This document shows positions 7,794 to 36,811 of a stretch of 64,000 bases of DNA, in pieces (position 1 is the stretch's first letter; each line of letters opens with the position of its first letter). The translations under genes and the position numbers were made by a program. Source of the stretch: Promethearchaeota archaeon (GTDB taxonomy: Archaea; Asgardarchaeota; Lokiarchaeia; Sigyniarchaeales; SOKP01); the NCBI GenBank assembly GCA_016839705.1, contig JAEOTR010000060.1:32001-96000 (forward strand), given 5' to 3'. The notes beneath the pieces are model-generated. The model did not search any database. It was not told the origin of the DNA and worked only from the letters and a program-made list of their open reading frames with translations.

Positions 7794-8198
7794 ATACAGT
7801 TTGGATCCGATTTAGGTATAAATCAAGAAGATATAGAGAAAATTAGTCCACAAATTACCTTTATAACCTCTAATGCAGATATTGAAGCGATTGCGCTTGT
7901 CAGTTCTGAAGGTTACCAGATTGCATTTTCAGCATTACCCCAATATCATGTGGATGGGGACCAATTTTGCGGACTTGCAAGTGCATTATTAATGACAGGT
8001 AGATCTACTATTCAAACATTATTTCAGGAGGATTTAAGTGAAGTCATTGTTAGGGCAGAAAATGGTTATATTATCATAACCAACGCTGGAAGATTAGTAA
8101 TAGTTTGTGCGGGAACTATTATTGATACTTTGATGAAATCTGTAAAAGTCATGCGCATAGCGGCTAAAAACCTATATAAAATATTCGAGAATCGATAA
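7794..8198 (+). CDS. roadblock/LC7 domain protein (probable ATA start; ORF track starts at GTG 7950)
   Basis: Frame is open from 7782; the extension encodes IEAIALVSSEGYQIAFS, the roadblock beta1-beta2, completing the fold with EVIVRAENGYIIITNAG; AAGGTG upstream of ATA 7794. Confidence 0.85.
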   Translation: MQFGSDLGINQEDIEKISPQITFITSNADIEAIALVSSEGYQIAFSALPQYHVDGDQFCGLASALLMTGRSTIQTLFQEDLSEVIVRAENGYIIITNAGRLVIVCAGTIIDTLMKSVKVMRIAAKNLYKIFENR

Positions 8199-8210: not shown

Positions 8211-8349
8211 GGTTATTTCCTATCAAGGGAAATCTGCTTTCAATTTTAACAAAAATGTAAAACCATATACCCATAGTTTAAAAATATTACAAAAATATCA
8301 AAAGGAAAGAGTTAACTTTTTAAGCCTTAAAATAAAATAATCAATAACA

Positions 8350-8357
8350 TTATAATA
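8350..8357 (+). promoter_or_regulatory. candidate TATA box for the trp leader transcript
   Basis: TTATAATA about 20-25 nt upstream of leader ATG 8376, compatible with a near-leaderless mRNA; the AT-rich context makes this weak. Confidence 0.35.
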
Positions 8358-8375
8358 ACTTTAAAATAATGTCTT

Positions 8376-8444
8376 ATGACGCTTGCTAAAAACCTTCTGT
8401 GGTGTTGGCAGTGGCCTTGGCGTGGCGATAACGCCTTTGCATAG
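8376..8444 (+). CDS. Trp-rich leader peptide MTLAKNLLWCWQWPWRGDNAFA (candidate attenuator upstream of trpB2)
   Basis: ATG..TAG, 22 aa, in-frame TGG at 8400, 8406, 8412 and 8418; GC-rich island in AT-rich intergenic DNA; ends 136 nt before trpB2. Confidence 0.75.
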   Translation: MTLAKNLLWCWQWPWRGDNAFA

Positions 8445-8518
8445 GACTTAATTTAATGAAAGCATCTCTCTTCTCTTGGTTTTACCCTTTCAAAAATTAA
8501 ATTTATATCTTTTATGCG

Positions 8519-8549
8519 CATTAATCTATTGGCATCCAATAAATTAATG
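8519..8549 (+). promoter_or_regulatory. inverted repeat/hairpin between leader peptide and trpB2
   Basis: CATTAAT-c-TATTGG cat CCAATA-a-ATTAATG, 13 of 14 positions paired. Confidence 0.5.
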
Positions 8550-8580
8550 ACACACATTTAATATAAAGAAACAATTATAT

Positions 8581-9996
8581 GTGGTAAAGAAAATGACAGA
8601 TTATTTTAAAGCAAGGATAAATTTAGAGCCCAGTGAGGTTCCAAAGGAATGGATAAATATTGTACCCGATTTACCAACTCCTATGACTCCTTTGGTTAAC
8701 CCAATGGATGGAAAACCTGCACCACCGGAAATGGCGTTTGCAATTTTTCCCAAAGAGTGTGTGTTGCAAGAAGTATCACAAGAAAGAACAATTCCTATCC
8801 CAAATGAGTTAAGAGAGATTTATGCTAAATCTTATAGACCTACACCTCTCCATCGCGCCTTAAGGTTGGAACGGGAGTTAGGAACAGAAGGAGATGACAT
8901 TAAAATTTTTTATAAGAATGAATCAACATCTCCTACAGGATCACATAAACCAAACACTGCTATAGCTCAAGCATATTATGCCAAGAAAGACGGACTAGAA
9001 GAGCTAGTTACAGAAACAGGTGCGGGACAATGGGGTTCAGGTTTAGCATACGGGTGTAATTTATTTGACATCAAATGTACTGTGTACATGGTAAGAGCAA
9101 GTTTTACACAAAAACCAGGAAGAAAAATCTTAATGAGATGCTATAATGCTGAAGTTCATGCAAGCCCTTCGAGATTTACAGAATCAGGAAAATTATTTTT
9201 AGAAAAAGATCCAGATCATCCTGGAAGCCTAGGAATTGCAATCTCTGAAGCTATTGAACATAGTATGAGTAGTGATAAAATAAGGTATTCTTTAGGAAGT
9301 GTTGTAAATTTTGTGCTTTTACATCAAACCGTTATTGGACAAGAAGCAAAGATACAATTAAATAAAGCGGGGATCAAAGATCCTGATATAGTCATTGGTT
9401 GTATGGGAGGCGGATCTAACTTCGCTGGGTTAATGATTCCTTTCGCCAGAGACAAATTAACTGGAGCTAATTCAGAAATAGAGATCATCGGAGTAGAGCC
9501 ACGAGCCTGTCCAAGTGTTTGCAAAGGACAATATCGTTGGGATTTTGGGGATACAGCAATGAAAGGACCTATAGCAAAAATGCATACTTTAGGTCATACA
9601 TTTATTCCTAGCCCAATACATGCAGGGGGATTAAGGTATCACGGAATGGCTCCGATTGTTTCAATTTTAAACAACAATAAGGTAATCTCAGCAACAATGC
9701 ATCATCAAACGGAAGTTATAAAAGCTGGAATTCAATTTGCTAAAACGGAAGGGATTCTTCCTGCTCCTGAAACTGCTCATGCCATAAAAGAAGTCATCGA
9801 TCAAGCCATAAAAGCCAAGGAAAACAACGAAAAGAAGGTAATACTCTTTAACTTTAGCGGTCATGGATATTTTGATTTACTAGCTTATAAAGAATATATG
9901 ACAGGTGCATTAGAAGATTACGAATTACCTACTGAAAGCATTAAAAAAGCTCTAGAGTCAGAAGAAATGCCAAAAATCGATGAATCACAGTTTTAA
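8581..9996 (+). CDS. trpB2: tryptophan synthase beta chain, TrpB2 type (stand-alone)
   Basis: YRPTPL, PLP lysine motif SPTGSHKPNTA, TETGAGQWG, GGGSNF, HAGGLRYHG, NFSGHG; long N-terminal extension; no trpA adjacent. Start may be ATG 8593. Confidence 0.95.
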   Translation: MVKKMTDYFKARINLEPSEVPKEWINIVPDLPTPMTPLVNPMDGKPAPPEMAFAIFPKECVLQEVSQERTIPIPNELREIYAKSYRPTPLHRALRLERELGTEGDDIKIFYKNESTSPTGSHKPNTAIAQAYYAKKDGLEELVTETGAGQWGSGLAYGCNLFDIKCTVYMVRASFTQKPGRKILMRCYNAEVHASPSRFTESGKLFLEKDPDHPGSLGIAISEAIEHSMSSDKIRYSLGSVVNFVLLHQTVIGQEAKIQLNKAGIKDPDIVIGCMGGGSNFAGLMIPFARDKLTGANSEIEIIGVEPRACPSVCKGQYRWDFGDTAMKGPIAKMHTLGHTFIPSPIHAGGLRYHGMAPIVSILNNNKVISATMHHQTEVIKAGIQFAKTEGILPAPETAHAIKEVIDQAIKAKENNEKKVILFNFSGHGYFDLLAYKEYMTGALEDYELPTESIKKALESEEMPKIDESQF

Positions 9997-10099: not shown

Positions 10100-11170
10100 T
10101 TGATGAATATAACTTCGGTTATAATTATATGTTTACTCTATTTTTATGGCTTATTTCTGCTTTATGTCACTTATCTGACAAAAAAGAAAGGCGATAAAGG
10201 AGCTTTCATTAATAATGCAGCAAATTCTATAGTTTTCATTATTTCAATTACAATTAATTTAATTCTAATTAACATTATAAATCCCCTCAGTGCTTATTTT
10301 GTTGCTTTTCCGTTTGATTTTTTAATGCTAGGATTTGTTATTGTATATATTCCTATTTTTTATATTCTAGTAATTAAAGAAAAGAGGAACATAAATAAAG
10401 GAAAGAGCTCAGTAGAAGAATTTACTCCTAGAACGAAAGATCTCCCATTAAAATATGATATTTATCGAAAATTAACTCATTTAATCGTTCTTGGAATAAT
10501 TTTTTTCTATTTTACTCTCGGATTTTTAATTCAAAATTTTTTCATTTATATTTTAGATTTTTTACCAAGTTTCTTTATTGGAATGTTTGATATAGGTGAT
10601 GATATAATGGTTTTTACCCAAAACTTAGTTGTTTTCTTAGTTGGTGTATCTTTAATCGGATTATTAACAGCAGACTTTACCAGAATTTTAAAACCAACGT
10701 ACTACCCTTTAAAAGCTGTAAACCAAATATTGAAGAAAAAAGAATTACATATGAGATTGGGACCTCATATCTCTATGAGCATTGGTTGTTTTTCAATAAT
10801 TCTACTTTATGGATTGTTTCAACCTATTGGTCCGCTGATAATTTGTACATCAATGGCTATGGCGGTATTTGGAGATACTTCATCTAATTTGATTGGTAGG
10901 GTAATTGGAAGGAAAAAAATCCGCGATACAAGTAAAACATATGAAGGATTAATTGCTGGAATTATTGTTGCCTTCGTCTTCGGGGTGATAGTTTTAATCT
11001 TATTGCACAATTTTTATTTGCCTAGAAATTTAGGATTAATTTTTATTCCATTAATAGGTGCTATTATTATTGGTTTGATTGATTACTTAGATCTAGAAAT
11101 TGATGATAACCTCTCTTATACTTGTGTCCTTTCGATGTTATTATTTTTTAGTGCCATTTTGCTATTCTAA
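10100..11170 (+). CDS. CTP-dependent dolichol/phytol/diacylglycerol kinase family membrane protein
   Basis: YRKLTHL, FGDTSSNLIGRVIG..K..KTYEG and DDN motifs; multi-TM. Confidence 0.8.
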   Translation: MMNITSVIIICLLYFYGLFLLYVTYLTKKKGDKGAFINNAANSIVFIISITINLILINIINPLSAYFVAFPFDFLMLGFVIVYIPIFYILVIKEKRNINKGKSSVEEFTPRTKDLPLKYDIYRKLTHLIVLGIIFFYFTLGFLIQNFFIYILDFLPSFFIGMFDIGDDIMVFTQNLVVFLVGVSLIGLLTADFTRILKPTYYPLKAVNQILKKKELHMRLGPHISMSIGCFSIILLYGLFQPIGPLIICTSMAMAVFGDTSSNLIGRVIGRKKIRDTSKTYEGLIAGIIVAFVFGVIVLILLHNFYLPRNLGLIFIPLIGAIIIGLIDYLDLEIDDNLSYTCVLSMLLFFSAILLF

Positions 11171-11227: not shown

Positions 11228-11740
11228 ATGAAAATGATGGAAGAAAAATTAAAAATAGTAAAAATTACCAAAGGAACCGTAATCGATCATATTGACGCGG
11301 GTTATGCTTTAACAATTCTAAATTTAACTGGTCTTGATGAGGTTAAAAATTTAATAACTATAGGAGTTAATGTCTCCTCTAAAAAATATAATACAAAAGA
11401 TATCATCAAGATCGAGAACGTTTTTTTAAATGAAACTCAAATGCAACAAATTTCAATACTCTCACCAAATGCTACTATATCTCTAATTGAAGAGAATAAT
11501 GTAATTGAAAAAAAAAAAGTAGAATTACCAAAAATAATTAAAAAACTGATACTATGTGTTAATCAAACCTGTATTTCAAATTCTGAAAAAGAACCGATCG
11601 ATACAGAATTTTTAGTTTTAGAAGAGAAACCATTAAAAATACAGTGTATCTATTGTGAACGTATTTATAAATTAGAAGAAATAGTATTTACATCCAAAGA
11701 AAAAAAGGAAAAAATTGTAAAACAGAGAATTCTCTTGTAA
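11228..11740 (+). CDS. pyrI: aspartate carbamoyltransferase regulatory chain
   Basis: GTVIDHI, KDIIKIE, Zn ligands CVNQTC and CIYC. Confidence 0.95.
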   Translation: MKMMEEKLKIVKITKGTVIDHIDAGYALTILNLTGLDEVKNLITIGVNVSSKKYNTKDIIKIENVFLNETQMQQISILSPNATISLIEENNVIEKKKVELPKIIKKLILCVNQTCISNSEKEPIDTEFLVLEEKPLKIQCIYCERIYKLEEIVFTSKEKKEKIVKQRILL

Positions 11741-12278: not shown

Positions 12279-14333
12279 ATGATGAAAATAGCTAAAGAAT
12301 TCTCTAATTTCGATGTTTTCGCCATAGTAAAAGAATTAGATACGATCCTAACAGACGGTTCGATTTCTAATATTTACGAAGTTAAAGATTTACTCATCTT
12401 AAAAATAAGTACAAATTTTGGGAAAAAAAATTTAATTATTAAAAAAGATTCTCGGATTAATTTAACTGAATTTGATTATCCGATACCAGATTATCCCAAC
12501 CAGTATATTAGAAGTTTAAGAAAGCTGCTCAAAAATAGAAGAATACTTAACGTCACTCAATATAAATTCGATAGAATTATAATAATAGAATTAACCAATA
12601 GAGAAGATGGATCATGGAAATTCATAATTGAATTGTTTAATAAAGGGAATTTTTTACTTTTAGATCAAAATAATTCCATCATTATCGCAAAAAGATATCG
12701 GAAATTTAAAGATCGAAGCATTCTTCCAAAAAAAGAGTACATTTTTCCTAAATCCAATGAAAAAGATTTCTTTACTTTAAATAAAGAAGATTTTAAAGCC
12801 TTTTTTGAAAATTCTGAAAATGAAATTGTAAGAGAAATATCAAGAAAATTAAAACTCTCTGGATTATATAGCGAGGAAATATGTTTTAGAGCAAACGTAA
12901 ACAAAAAAGAACTCGGTAAAAATCTGAACGATGATCACTTCACTAAATTATATGAATCATTTAAAAAAATAAGAAATGAAATGATGTTTGGTTTAGTTAA
13001 AGCTTATATAGTTTTTAACGAACAAGAAGATGAAGTTGCTGTTTTGCCATTCGAAATAGAGATTTTTAGAGATTACAAAAGAAAAGAATTTTCTTCCTTT
13101 AATGAAGCGGTTGATGAATTTTATTCTAAGATTGATTATGAATCAATAAAAAGCCCAAAAGATAAGAAGATTAAAAAAATGATTAAAGATCAGCAAAAAA
13201 TAATAGTAAATCAACAAGATTATCTCGAAGAACTTAAACTAAAAAAGAAGAAGTATTACGAATTAGGGGATTTTCTTTATAAAAATTTCAATAAGTTTGA
13301 AAAGTTACTTTCAGTAATACTAGATGCGAGAAATAAAGGATACCCTTGGAAAGAAATAAATGACAAATTGATAACAGCTAGGAATGAAAAATTAGATGAT
13401 GCAGAGTTTTTTGATAGAATTACCCCCTCTACAAACCAACTCTTAATTAATATAAATAATGATAAGGTAAATTTAGATTTAAGAAAATCGCTTGGAGAAA
13501 ATATAAATTTAATATATTCTAAGGGGAAAAAAGCTGAAAAGAAAATAAAAGGAACTGTTTCAGCAATCAAGAAAACCAATGATAAAATCATCAAACTTAC
13601 ACTTGAAAAGGAATCTTTGGAAATGGGGATTGATTTTCTTGTTAAAAAACCGAAGAAAAAATGGTATGAAAAATTTAGATCGTTTCACTCCTCAGAGGGA
13701 TTTCTAATTATAGGAGGGAGAGATGCTGCTACTAATGAAATTATTTTCAAGAAATATTTAGAACCTTCTGATTTAGTATTTCACACAAATTTTCCCGGTT
13801 CACCTTTGGTTGTAATTAAGAATCCTGAAAATAAAGAAATTACATCAATTACGATTAAAGAAACCGCAGAATTTGTAGCTAGTTTTTCCCGAGCTTGGAA
13901 AGAAAATTGGGGTGTGGTTGATACATTTTATGTGAATCCAGACCAAATTTCAAGATCACCCCCAACAGGGGAATATTTACAAAAAGGATCATTTATAATA
14001 ACCGGGAAAAAGAACTTTATAAAGAATGTAAAAACTGAACTTACTATTGGCTTACTTCTTGTTGAACTAAATGTAGGAGAAAGCAACCAAAATAAAGGCT
14101 ATTTTCCTACAATCATTTGTGGTCCAGAAACTGCAATCAAAAAACAAGCAAATAATACTATAACAATAGTACCCTCCAAATCTAATGGTTTAACAAAAGG
14201 AAAATTAGCTAAAGAATTAAAATCTCATTTTATTAGAGATATTGATAAAGATTTGAAGAAATGGTTAGAATTATTATCTCTAGATGAGTTATTATTATAC
14301 CTTCCGAATGGATTTTCTATGATTAAACCGTAA
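12279..14333 (+). CDS. rqcH: ribosome quality control protein Rqc2/NEMF (NFACT family)
   Basis: FSNFDV, LRK.L, FDRII, ELFNKGN, KWYEKF, GGRDAATNE, GEYL.KGSF. Confidence 0.92.
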   Translation: MMKIAKEFSNFDVFAIVKELDTILTDGSISNIYEVKDLLILKISTNFGKKNLIIKKDSRINLTEFDYPIPDYPNQYIRSLRKLLKNRRILNVTQYKFDRIIIIELTNREDGSWKFIIELFNKGNFLLLDQNNSIIIAKRYRKFKDRSILPKKEYIFPKSNEKDFFTLNKEDFKAFFENSENEIVREISRKLKLSGLYSEEICFRANVNKKELGKNLNDDHFTKLYESFKKIRNEMMFGLVKAYIVFNEQEDEVAVLPFEIEIFRDYKRKEFSSFNEAVDEFYSKIDYESIKSPKDKKIKKMIKDQQKIIVNQQDYLEELKLKKKKYYELGDFLYKNFNKFEKLLSVILDARNKGYPWKEINDKLITARNEKLDDAEFFDRITPSTNQLLININNDKVNLDLRKSLGENINLIYSKGKKAEKKIKGTVSAIKKTNDKIIKLTLEKESLEMGIDFLVKKPKKKWYEKFRSFHSSEGFLIIGGRDAATNEIIFKKYLEPSDLVFHTNFPGSPLVVIKNPENKEITSITIKETAEFVASFSRAWKENWGVVDTFYVNPDQISRSPPTGEYLQKGSFIITGKKNFIKNVKTELTIGLLLVELNVGESNQNKGYFPTIICGPETAIKKQANNTITIVPSKSNGLTKGKLAKELKSHFIRDIDKDLKKWLELLSLDELLLYLPNGFSMIKP

Positions 14334-34201: not shown

Positions 34202-36811
34202 TTATTTCTGTGAGTTATAAATATAAATTTTAATCTCTAGATCTTCAATTTTTTGTTTTAAATCTGGATTTTCTTCTAATCCATTTTCCTCTGAAATCTT
34301 GATTATATCTAAATTTTCAATTCGAATAGTATTTTTAATGTCATCTCTTAATTTTTCAATTTTTTTCAATTGATTTTCTTCTGTTAGGATGACCACTTTT
34401 GATATTTCTTGATTTAATGGTATTTGAAGCTTTGATTTATTCATTCTTAACAATTTTATTATTTCAATCCCGATTTTTCCAATATCCGTTAAATCTTCAG
34501 AAACTTTTAGGTATTGACCTGGCCATCTTTCTTGATGTATTGACTTCAAATTTGTGAATCTTTTATAAATAATCGAATTTATTTCTTCAGATATAAAGGG
34601 CATTGTTACAGCAGAAAGAATTAACATCTTATAAAATAAATTCAATGCATTTTTTAAAGAAATTTCTCTAATATGATGGTCATTAGAATAGAATTTATGC
34701 TTTATTGCTTCAATATAATTATCACATAAATCATTCCAAAAAAAGGAACGCAAGCTAAGAGTAGCTCCATGCCAATTATATTCATCAAAATATTTACCAA
34801 TTATTTCTAAATTTTTGTTAAATTCAGAATAATAGAAACAATCTATTACCGATAAATCCTCAGTTTTAATATTCAGATTAGAAGTTTCGATCTTATTCAA
34901 ATTTAAGAATAAGAACCTGAAGGCATTCCAAATTTTCGTGATAAATCTGGATGTACCCACTAGCTGATCACATCTTATCCCGAATTTTTTGTTAAATTTA
35001 TCTTCTGGAAGTTTTACTCTTTCTTCCGCGATAACAGAATCAGAAATTGGTTGCTTAGTTTGAAGACTTATCCACGAAAATTCAAATGGATAATCGTCTC
35101 CTAAAGATCCCATAGCAGCCCATTGTCTAATCGCATCTGCACCATATAAAGGTAGAATCTCATCTGGTGAAATTGAATTTCCAAGACTTTTTGACATATG
35201 ACGGCCATCTGGACCTGCAACCATCCCGTTTATCATAACTTCATAAAAGGGGTCTTTTCCTGTCAATTTTTTGCATCGGAATAAGGTATAAAACAACCAT
35301 GTTCGGATAATCTCATATCCTTGGGGCCTATGAACTTTAGCTTTAAGATAAGTTTTCTCAAAAAAGTCTTCATCCTCCTTCCATTTTGCAATTTCTAATG
35401 GGGTTATACTAGAATCAATCCAACAATCACATACATCTTTTTCTCCGATGAGCTTTTCACTTTTACATTTCGAGCATTTTTTAATCGGAGGGTTAGTTTT
35501 TACAGGATCTAAAGGTAAATCTTCATTATTTGGGGCAATAATTTCACCACATTCTGCACAATACCAAAATGGGATTGGAGTGCCAAAAACTCTTTGGCGT
35601 GAAATAACCCAGTTCCAACCTAAACCTTCTGTCCAATCTAATAATCTTTGCTTCTGTTTTTCAGGATACCAATTCATTTTTTCTGCAGATTGAATAATTT
35701 CCTGGGTAAAATCCTTTACGTTGATAAACCATTGAAAAACAGGTAAATATTCTATTGGTTTTCGGCATGATGGCCTTTCAGAATGAACAATAATAGTGTG
35801 TTCATAATCTTCTATTTTTTCGACAAGTCCCATTTCTTTTAGATCTTTTACAATTTCCTCTCGAGCTTCATGAATTGTAAGACCTTGGTATTTGGAATTT
35901 TCATTCATATGGCCATCTTCCGTGAAAATCTGAATTTCATCAAGATTATATTGTATTTTCCAATTAATATCCATTTCATCTCCATAAGTACAAACATAAA
36001 CAACTCCTGTACCAAAATTCATATCCACTATGCTATCCATATAAATTCGAACAGTTCGGTCGGTAAAAGGAATCTTTATTTCCGCAGCAGAGAGATCGTA
36101 ATACCTATTATCATTTGGATGAACCATTACGGCGACACAGGCTTCCATATATTCAGGTCGTGTGGTTGCAATCGTGATAAATTCATTTTCTCTTCCTACA
36201 ATTGGTAATTTTATATACCATAATTTTCCTTGTTCTTCTTGATAACCTACTTCTGCTTTCGCAACAGATGTCTCACAGTTAACGCAAAAATGTGTTGGAA
36301 ATTTTTCACGATATAACCATCCCTTCTCATAAAAATATAACAGTGATAATTGAACTTTATACTTATAATCATCATTCATGGTTCGATATGTGTATTCCCA
36401 ATCAGCAGAATATCCTAAATCATCATATTGTCTTCTCATATTTTTTATATTATTATCAACCCATTCGACACATTTTTCGAGGAATTCATCTCTTTGATGT
36501 TGTGAGATTCCGTACTCTTTTTGCACGGCAAGTTCCACTGGTAATCCATGACAATCGAAGCCTTGTGGAAAATAGACATTATCTCCTTTCATCTTATGAT
36601 ATCTTGCAACAAAATCTATCCATGAGTGATTTAAAATATGTCCCATATGTAGGTTTCCACTTACAAAAGGAGGAGGGGTATCAATTGAAAATATTTCACC
36701 TTTTTGATTGATATCAAAAGAGTAAATTTTTTCCTCACGCCAGTACTTCATCCATTTGTTTTGAACTTCCTTAAAGTTAAACCGTTTTGGATATAATGCT
36801 TCTTTCGACAT
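34202..36811 (-). CDS. valS: valyl-tRNA synthetase (archaeal type)
   Basis: SIDTPPP, HMGH, ATTRPE, ISRQR, MSKS. Confidence 0.95.
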   Translation of the reverse strand: MSKEALYPKRFNFKEVQNKWMKYWREEKIYSFDINQKGEIFSIDTPPPFVSGNLHMGHILNHSWIDFVARYHKMKGDNVYFPQGFDCHGLPVELAVQKEYGISQHQRDEFLEKCVEWVDNNIKNMRRQYDDLGYSADWEYTYRTMNDDYKYKVQLSLLYFYEKGWLYREKFPTHFCVNCETSVAKAEVGYQEEQGKLWYIKLPIVGRENEFITIATTRPEYMEACVAVMVHPNDNRYYDLSAAEIKIPFTDRTVRIYMDSIVDMNFGTGVVYVCTYGDEMDINWKIQYNLDEIQIFTEDGHMNENSKYQGLTIHEAREEIVKDLKEMGLVEKIEDYEHTIIVHSERPSCRKPIEYLPVFQWFINVKDFTQEIIQSAEKMNWYPEKQKQRLLDWTEGLGWNWVISRQRVFGTPIPFWYCAECGEIIAPNNEDLPLDPVKTNPPIKKCSKCKSEKLIGEKDVCDCWIDSSITPLEIAKWKEDEDFFEKTYLKAKVHRPQGYEIIRTWLFYTLFRCKKLTGKDPFYEVMINGMVAGPDGRHMSKSLGNSISPDEILPLYGADAIRQWAAMGSLGDDYPFEFSWISLQTKQPISDSVIAEERVKLPEDKFNKKFGIRCDQLVGTSRFITKIWNAFRFLFLNLNKIETSNLNIKTEDLSVIDCFYYSEFNKNLEIIGKYFDEYNWHGATLSLRSFFWNDLCDNYIEAIKHKFYSNDHHIREISLKNALNLFYKMLILSAVTMPFISEEINSIIYKRFTNLKSIHQERWPGQYLKVSEDLTDIGKIGIEIIKLLRMNKSKLQIPLNQEISKVVILTEENQLKKIEKLRDDIKNTIRIENLDIIKISEENGLEENPDLKQKIEDLEIKIYIYNSQK

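What the first reader, a model, noticed from the sequence alone, without database searches (positions are those of the whole stretch)
8340..8600. Candidate tryptophan-sensing leader-peptide attenuator in an archaeon, upstream of trpB2
Seen: a 22-codon ORF (8376-8444) encodes MTLAKNLLWCWQWPWRGDNAFA, with four in-frame TGG codons in seven positions, directly upstream of a tryptophan synthase beta gene in a genome where G-rich codons are scarce. The RNA can form GUCUUAUG(8371-8378)/CAUAGGAC(8440-8447), which pairs the start codon with the stop region. It can also form a hairpin at 8384-8410 over the first Trp codons. GGCGU(8419-8423) can pair with either 8379-8383 or 8431-8435, the latter competing with the GGCG-AUAA-CGCC hairpin. 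A C/U-rich tract (8463-8491) follows. Established: Trp-codon leader peptides (TrpL) drive attenuation in bacteria; the archaeal trp control I know of is the TrpY repressor; archaea couple transcription and translation and terminate at U-tracts or via FttA/aCPSF1. Inference: ribosome speed over the Trp codons controls termination or trpB2 translation. I am not aware of such a system being described for Asgard archaea.
Basis: partly seen in the sequence, partly recalled or inferred. Interest (0 to 1): 0.95.

Follow-up and report, generated by a model that had tools for sequence, protein, structure and literature searches.

The report
Tryptophan-sensing leader peptide, Asgard archaeon
A tiny gene with four tryptophan codons, folded into a conserved RNA hairpin, precedes the only tryptophan-synthesis gene found in this Asgard archaeon and the tryptophan genes of over a hundred relatives; it very probably lets the ribosome gauge tryptophan supply, a control known from bacteria for which I found no paper in archaea.

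Summary
Confirmed. ORF 8376-8444 is a conserved leader: 114 of 135 close trpB2 loci have an ATG-started Trp-rich ORF (ATG in frame 114 times, against 4 and 9 in the other frames). So do all 12 distant-family loci with upstream DNA, five trp operons and 6 of 20 loci from other Asgard groups. Only 1 of 2,398 genes here has a four-Trp leader: trpB2. This genome also has Ile, Leu and Cys leaders before ileS, leuS, leuA and a cysteine-synthase-like gene, which points to sensing of charged tRNA. The shared design is sensing codons next to the stop and a hairpin overlapping them that a stalled ribosome would melt. No antiterminator or SD switch was found, so this is not an E. coli-type attenuator. 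The output is unproven; termination at the U/C tract, probably via aCPSF1, is my best guess. A second covarying hairpin (8509-8562) survives loss of the ORF. No RNA data were available. The scan found the same Trp leader, and Ile/Leu leaders, before on other genomes.

The parts
8305..8324 (+). Candidate promoter: purine-rich BRE-like stretch and T5-A-A-G TATA-like box; implies a start near 8346 and an A/U-rich 5' leader of about 30 nt
   Evidence: T-run recurs about 58 nt before the leader ATG in relatives. Start site inferred from archaeal promoter spacing, not mapped.
8376..8444 (+). Leader ORF, 22 codons, Trp at codons 9, 11, 13 and 15
   Evidence: in-frame ATG 114/118; all three stop codons used; first Trp at codon 9 in 81/107.
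8384..8410 (+).
   Evidence: Better than shuffles in 92% of 77 leaders but equal to a synonymous-codon control: inconclusive.
8409..8445 (+). H1: interrupted hairpin pairing two successive Trp codons with the segment after them; upper stem 8419-23/8431-35, lower stem 8409-13 with the conserved CANNGG at 8440-45
   Evidence: Upper stem averages 5.3 bp against 3.1 in shuffles; CA pairs with the UG of the Trp codon 6 nt upstream in 89-97%; -14.9 kcal/mol free, about -0.5 with a ribosome on the last Trp.
8463..8500 (+). Pyrimidine/U-rich tract, partly in a weak, variable A/U hairpin (H2); candidate termination or cleavage signal
   Evidence: U peaks at 70% about 30 nt after CANNGG; a U4 run within 50 nt in 99% of leaders (the background is also U-rich). 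Function inferred.
8509..8562 (+). H3: covarying stem-loop with a five-base loop ending in UC and a three-base A-N-A bulge; function unexplained, looks like a protein-binding site
   Evidence: 33 two-sided changes against 11.6 in shuffles, 0/500; the only strong copy in the genome; kept in loci that lost the ORF and in a trp-operon leader; not found outside the family.
8583..8586 (+). Shine-Dalgarno-like GGUA of trpB2
8593..9996 (+). trpB2, stand-alone tryptophan synthase beta type 2; no trpA, trpE or trpB1 found in this 93% complete assembly

Best explanation
A ribosome-occupancy attenuator. A transcript starting about 30 nt before 8376 is translated through the short ORF (translation shown by comparative evidence; start site inferred). 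When charged tRNA-Trp is scarce the ribosome waits on the W-x-W codons, which form the 5' arm of hairpin H1, so H1 cannot fold (shown in silico) and RNA polymerase reads on into trpB2 (inferred). When Trp is plentiful the ribosome finishes and leaves, H1 folds, the RNA behind the polymerase is free of ribosomes, and transcription ends in the U/C-rich tract, most likely with help from aCPSF1/FttA (inferred). The signal is ribosome present versus ribosome gone, not a 2:3 versus 3:4 refolding. I put the sensor at about 0.9 and the termination output, given the sensor, at about 0.6.
For: Sensor: conservation, frame, uniqueness; same leader before trpD operons; other Asgard groups; Ile leader before ileS 14/14 in the genus, Leu leader before leuS 15/15 and before leuA 7/11, Cys leader before a cysK-like gene 3/4; none seen before trpS/tyrS. 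Occupancy logic: the last Trp is 0-3 codons from the stop in 110 of 128; the stop has moved by frameshift in several clades without loss of the element; in all five leader types a hairpin overlaps or starts at the ORF end. Output: U/C tract follows H1. In ileS the hairpin alternative to the stop-proximal one hides the pyrimidine tract; in leuS the tract is the loop of the stop-proximal hairpin. Full aCPSF1 in 35/41 genomes searched. Lokiarchaeal aCPSF1 works with U-tracts (PMC8716108).
Against: Ribosome position does not change the predicted accessibility of the tract (0.66 to 0.70) or of the SD (0.52 to 0.55). H1 ends about 17 nt before the tract, so it is not a bacterial intrinsic terminator, and a stalled ribosome would not cover the RNA that FttA binds (-1 to -36, PMC11616081). 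Archaeal terminators generally lack hairpins. The leuA and leuS hairpins are not followed by clear U-runs. H3 is unexplained. Full aCPSF1 is missing from this assembly. H1 chimeras fold almost as well as native sequences (-12.0 against -12.9), so covariation in H1 is modest.
Confidence: 0.55

Rival explanations
1. Same sensor, translational output: the stalled ribosome opens structure that otherwise hides the trpB2 ribosome-binding site, as in mycobacterial polycysteine leaders; H3 and the helices next to the SD would be the switch.
For: H3 and further helices lie between the tract and the SD; leaders in two other Asgard groups are only 64-83 nt from trpB2; in ileS the downstream segment could pair weakly with the ileS SD (my reading).
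Against: SD accessibility is unchanged by ribosome position; no covarying partner links the freed segment to H3 or its flanks; stop-to-gene distances run up to about 450 nt in distant families.
Confidence: 0.2
2. Same sensor, output by RNA cleavage and decay: after ribosome release a nuclease cuts in the tract and the trpB2 mRNA is degraded, with H3 as a stability or protein-binding element.
For: aCPSF1 is an endo- and 5'-3' exonuclease; H3 has conserved loop and bulge bases and persists without the ORF.
Against: No direct evidence; hard to separate from termination by sequence alone.
Confidence: 0.1
3. Nascent-peptide arrest of the TnaC kind: the peptide stalls the ribosome in response to free Trp or indole.
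For: First Trp at codon 9 in 81/107 family members; alternating W-x-W pattern; TrpB2 probably uses indole (own knowledge).
Against: N-terminal residues and leader length vary freely; spacer codons are fixed as nucleotides, such as CAG 98 against CAA 5, opposite to genome usage; parallel Ile, Leu and Cys leaders fit tRNA-charging sensing.
Confidence: 0.06
4. Eukaryote-like uORF control: ribosomes that translate the SD-poor leader re-initiate, or fail to re-initiate, at trpB2.
For: Canonical SD before the leader in only 3%; Asgard host.
Against: trpB2 has its own SD-like motif; about 150 nt of structured RNA lie between; a weak GGU occurs before the leader ATG in 43/107; slow Trp decoding would lower, not raise, re-initiation.
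Confidence: 0.05
5. Not translated or not regulatory: a DNA repeat or RNA-binding site made of UGGC units that happens to read as Trp.
For: Six-base periodic UGGC repeats; nucleotide-level conservation.
Against: In-frame ATG 114 against 4 and 9; interchange of three stop codons; amino-acid-matched leaders for four amino acids.
Confidence: 0.04

Closest known systems
Enterobacterial trpL transcription attenuator (Rfam Trp_leader; own knowledge)
   Same: Short ORF with Trp codons before trp genes; the sensing codons lie in a 1:2 hairpin; parallel leaders for other amino acids and synthetases.
   Different: Archaeal host; W-x-W spacing instead of WW; codons next to the stop; no 2:3 antiterminator or hairpin-plus-U-run terminator found; no Rfam match.
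Mycobacterial polycysteine leader attenuators (bioRxiv 10.1101/834739)
   Same: Cognate codons at the ORF end; a stalled ribosome blocks an overlapping structure directly.
   Different: There the structure hides the downstream SD; here no SD switch is predicted.
E. coli tnaC and other Rho-dependent leaders (own knowledge; examples in PMC13675443)
   Same: A parked ribosome decides whether a factor terminates in a pyrimidine-rich leader.
   Different: tnaC senses free Trp through the peptide and induces catabolism; here tRNA shortage should induce synthesis, and the factor would be aCPSF1.
TrpY repressor of Methanothermobacter (cited in PMC1854888; details from own knowledge)
   Same: Archaeal Trp control, including trpB2.
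   Different: A DNA-binding protein acting at initiation; its TGTACA box occurs in only 5 of 152 upstream regions.

Membership tests
Classical leader-peptide transcription attenuator (trpL type) | Short translated ORF with cognate codons upstream of the regulated genes | tested here: met
   (comparative evidence of translation; no footprints).
Classical leader-peptide transcription attenuator (trpL type) | 1:2 hairpin containing the sensing codons | tested here: met
Classical leader-peptide transcription attenuator (trpL type) | Mutually exclusive 2:3 antiterminator | tested here: not met
   No conserved or covarying partner for the freed segment.
Classical leader-peptide transcription attenuator (trpL type) | Intrinsic terminator: stable hairpin directly followed by a U run | tested here: not met
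   Tract starts about 17 nt after H1 here and peaks about 30 nt after CANNGG in the family; closer in some distant families.
Classical leader-peptide transcription attenuator (trpL type) | Trp-dependent read-through that needs the ATG and TGG codons | not testable with these tools
   Needs experiments.
Rfam Trp_leader or any Rfam family | Covariance-model match | tested here: not met
   nothing near a gathering score.
Translational attenuator (mycobacterial polyCys type) | Stalled ribosome frees the downstream SD | tested here: not met
   Unpaired probability 0.52 free, 0.55 stalled (folding model only).
TnaC-type arrest peptide | Conserved tunnel-contacting residues at fixed distance from the stall site | tested here: inconclusive
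   Only W-x-W is shared; other residues and length vary.
aCPSF1/FttA-dependent terminator | Single-stranded U-rich tract and full-length aCPSF1 in the cell | tested here: inconclusive
   Tract present and about 0.66 unpaired; gene in 35/41 genomes but not in this assembly.
TrpY regulon | trpY gene in the genome | not tested
   No model accession at hand; only the TRP-box count was made.

The most novel reading that the evidence does not exclude
Lokiarchaeia and some other Asgard groups run a genome-wide set of amino-acid gauges (Trp, Ile, Leu, Cys) in which a ribosome parked at the end of a leader ORF keeps the CPSF73-type nuclease aCPSF1 from terminating transcription: attenuation built on archaeal/eukaryote-type termination machinery, without an antiterminator.
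Probability: 0.4. Interest if true: 0.92.

Novelty: new variant of a known kind. Interest (0 to 1): 0.8.

Why it matters
Leader-peptide attenuation is textbook for bacteria, and ten searches of the open literature gave no archaeal case. It requires ribosomes to act on nascent RNA, so it bears on transcription-translation coupling in the closest relatives of eukaryotes. It also offers a natural, portable reporter for the untested idea that ribosome and FttA exclude each other on archaeal polymerase (stated as a hypothesis in PMC11616081). The layout, without an antiterminator and with a movable stop, differs from the E. coli model. The cultured Lokiarchaeum ossiferum carries a version (L263), so the claim is directly testable.

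Tried and rejected
Rfam scan: no match. Sequencing runs: asked for RNA holders of a single-contig relative's locus (L027); no RNA holder was listed, so no reads were laid; this is no evidence either way. Mutual-information scan of the whole leader was dominated by relatedness and alignment gaps and gave nothing usable. Antiterminator candidates (CANNGG with the H3 loop, the H3 arms, or the segment before H3) failed permutation tests, p 0.25-0.95. The start-stop pairing is clade-specific. Assembly error as the source of the peptide tail was rejected: seven other loci share the deletion. An upstream out-of-frame ATG as an essential part was rejected: present within 30 nt in 61/107, with varying frame and length. 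Two papers (PMC7103508, PMC1236654) were not held; TrpY details rest on my own knowledge. Ten literature searches found no archaeal leader-peptide attenuator; the library lacks most subscription papers.

Full report
Observation. The gene behind it is TrpB2. It is the only tryptophan-pathway gene found in this 93% complete Lokiarchaeia-type assembly; trpB1, trpA and trpE were not found. Four Trp codons in seven positions would be expected about 0.27 times in all intergenic DNA, so the count alone is not decisive. However, the single gene out of 2,398 with such a leader is trpB2.

The ORF is conserved as a reading frame. I collected 152 distinct trpB2 upstream regions. Among 135 close loci with full upstream DNA, 114 have an ATG-started ORF with two to seven Trp. 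Where a W-x-W motif is present, an ATG precedes it in frame without a stop in 114 of 118 cases, against 4 and 9 in the other frames, and TAA, TAG and TGA all serve as stop. These sequences are related, so the counts are not independent, but unrelated N-termini occur in all 12 loci from three other families that have upstream DNA and in Lokiarchaeum ossiferum (L263). Most other genera of the family have it. Six of 20 loci outside the order have it, one of them weakly, including a family of 1.4 Mb genomes that I take, from size alone, to be Odinarchaeia. Trp leaders also precede trpD in five complete trp operons, one without an ATG start. About 16 close loci show no Trp cluster.

It is one of a set. 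A scan of this genome found an Ile run before ileS, Leu runs before leuS and leuA, and a Cys run before a cysteine-synthase-like gene (annotations). They recur in relatives: 14/14, 15/15, 7/11 and 3/4. Matching each leader to the amino acid of the downstream enzyme is the signature of sensing through charged tRNA and argues against a Trp-specific arrest peptide.

RNA anatomy. H1 pairs two successive Trp codons with the segment behind them; the register slides by one W-x repeat between clades, which may explain the six-base period. The upper stem is longer than in shuffles (5.3 against 3.1 bp) and shows some two-sided changes, though chimeras fold nearly as well. Spacer codons run against genome usage, indicating selection on the RNA. 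A ribosome on the last Trp removes essentially all of H1. A U/C-rich tract follows. H3 covaries clearly, is unique in the genome, travels with the leader to a trp operon, and persists where the ORF is lost, so it has a role of its own that I cannot name. The last six residues come from a one-base deletion shared by a small clade, which moves the stop 13 nt downstream.

What was not found. Ribosome position leaves the predicted accessibility of the tract and of the trpB2 SD unchanged, and the freed segment has no covarying partner. The element therefore fails two defining tests of the E. coli trpL family. That lowers the claim of membership, not the claim that it works as an attenuator.

Mechanism. 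In all five leader types the sensing codons sit at the end of the ORF and a hairpin overlaps or starts at that end, and in the Trp leader the stop can move. Stalling and normal arrival at the stop put the ribosome in nearly the same place, so the distinction must be between a ribosome that stays and one that leaves. In ileS two exclusive hairpins expose or hide a pyrimidine tract, with hiding favoured when the ribosome sits on the last Ile codons in two of four sequences folded. In leuS the tract is the loop of the stop-proximal hairpin. This fits termination by aCPSF1, which binds U-tracts and whose Lokiarchaeal form is active (PMC8716108) and is present in 35 of 41 genomes. Against this, the gene is missing from this assembly, and the geometry does not let a stalled ribosome cover FttA's 36-nt footprint (PMC11616081). 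Supported by tool results: ORF, H1, H3, tract, parallel leaders. Inferred: start site, stalling, direction and output.

Novelty. No Rfam family matches and no paper on archaeal leader-peptide attenuation turned up. A 2007 survey lists only the Methanothermobacter and Thermococcus trp systems, and Haloferax ribosome profiling reports uORFs without this role in the passages I read. Earlier notes of this scan describe the same Trp leader and Ile/Leu leaders in other genomes; they agree but are not independent support. Verdict: real, a new variant of a known kind, interest 0.8.

Noticed in passing
L031:3968-4075 (-), G000 contig C73: Cys-rich leader ORF ending in four Cys, stop in a hairpin loop, 113 nt before a cysteine-synthase-like gene; conserved in 3 of 4 close orthologues.
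   Followed up: partly
L032 upstream of 5062 (-); L074-L087: Ile leader before ileS; an invariant SD-containing segment can pair either inside the ORF or with a downstream segment, and two exclusive hairpins follow the stop.
   Followed up: partly
L076, L077, L079, L081-L087: ileS appears to start at ATT or ATA, an Ile codon, where this genome has ATG, right after the SD.
   Followed up: no
L314 upstream of 471 (+); L315-L329; L331-L336, L339: Leu leaders before leuS (15/15 in the genus, hairpin starting at the stop with a 29-nt pyrimidine loop) and before leuA (7/11).
   Followed up: partly
L035:10114-10221 and 10549-10620 (-): Two Trp leader ORFs in tandem before one trp operon.
   Followed up: no
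L033:5319-5396 (+): Trp leader placed after trpG, in front of a GNAT-methyltransferase fusion gene rather than a trp gene.
   Followed up: partly
L113, L120, L125, L195, L256: Loci that lost the Trp ORF but keep hairpin H3, with compensatory changes.
   Followed up: partly
G000 whole assembly; L304: No full-length aCPSF1 in this assembly, only a paralogue without KH domains; also not found in three other well-assembled genus members (G008, G012, G017), probably assembly gaps.
   Followed up: partly
window 8369-8389 (+): Six-codon out-of-frame ORF overlapping the leader start; an upstream ATG at -13 occurs in 31 of 107 relatives.
   Followed up: partly
window 7800-8198, 11228-11740, 12279-14333: Neighbours: a Roadblock/LC7 gene upstream; pyrI and an NFACT (Rqc2-like) gene downstream on the same strand.
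   Followed up: no
window 34202-36811 (-): Class I tRNA synthetase, probably valS, with a 305-nt upstream gap and no ATG-started short ORF found there.
   Followed up: no
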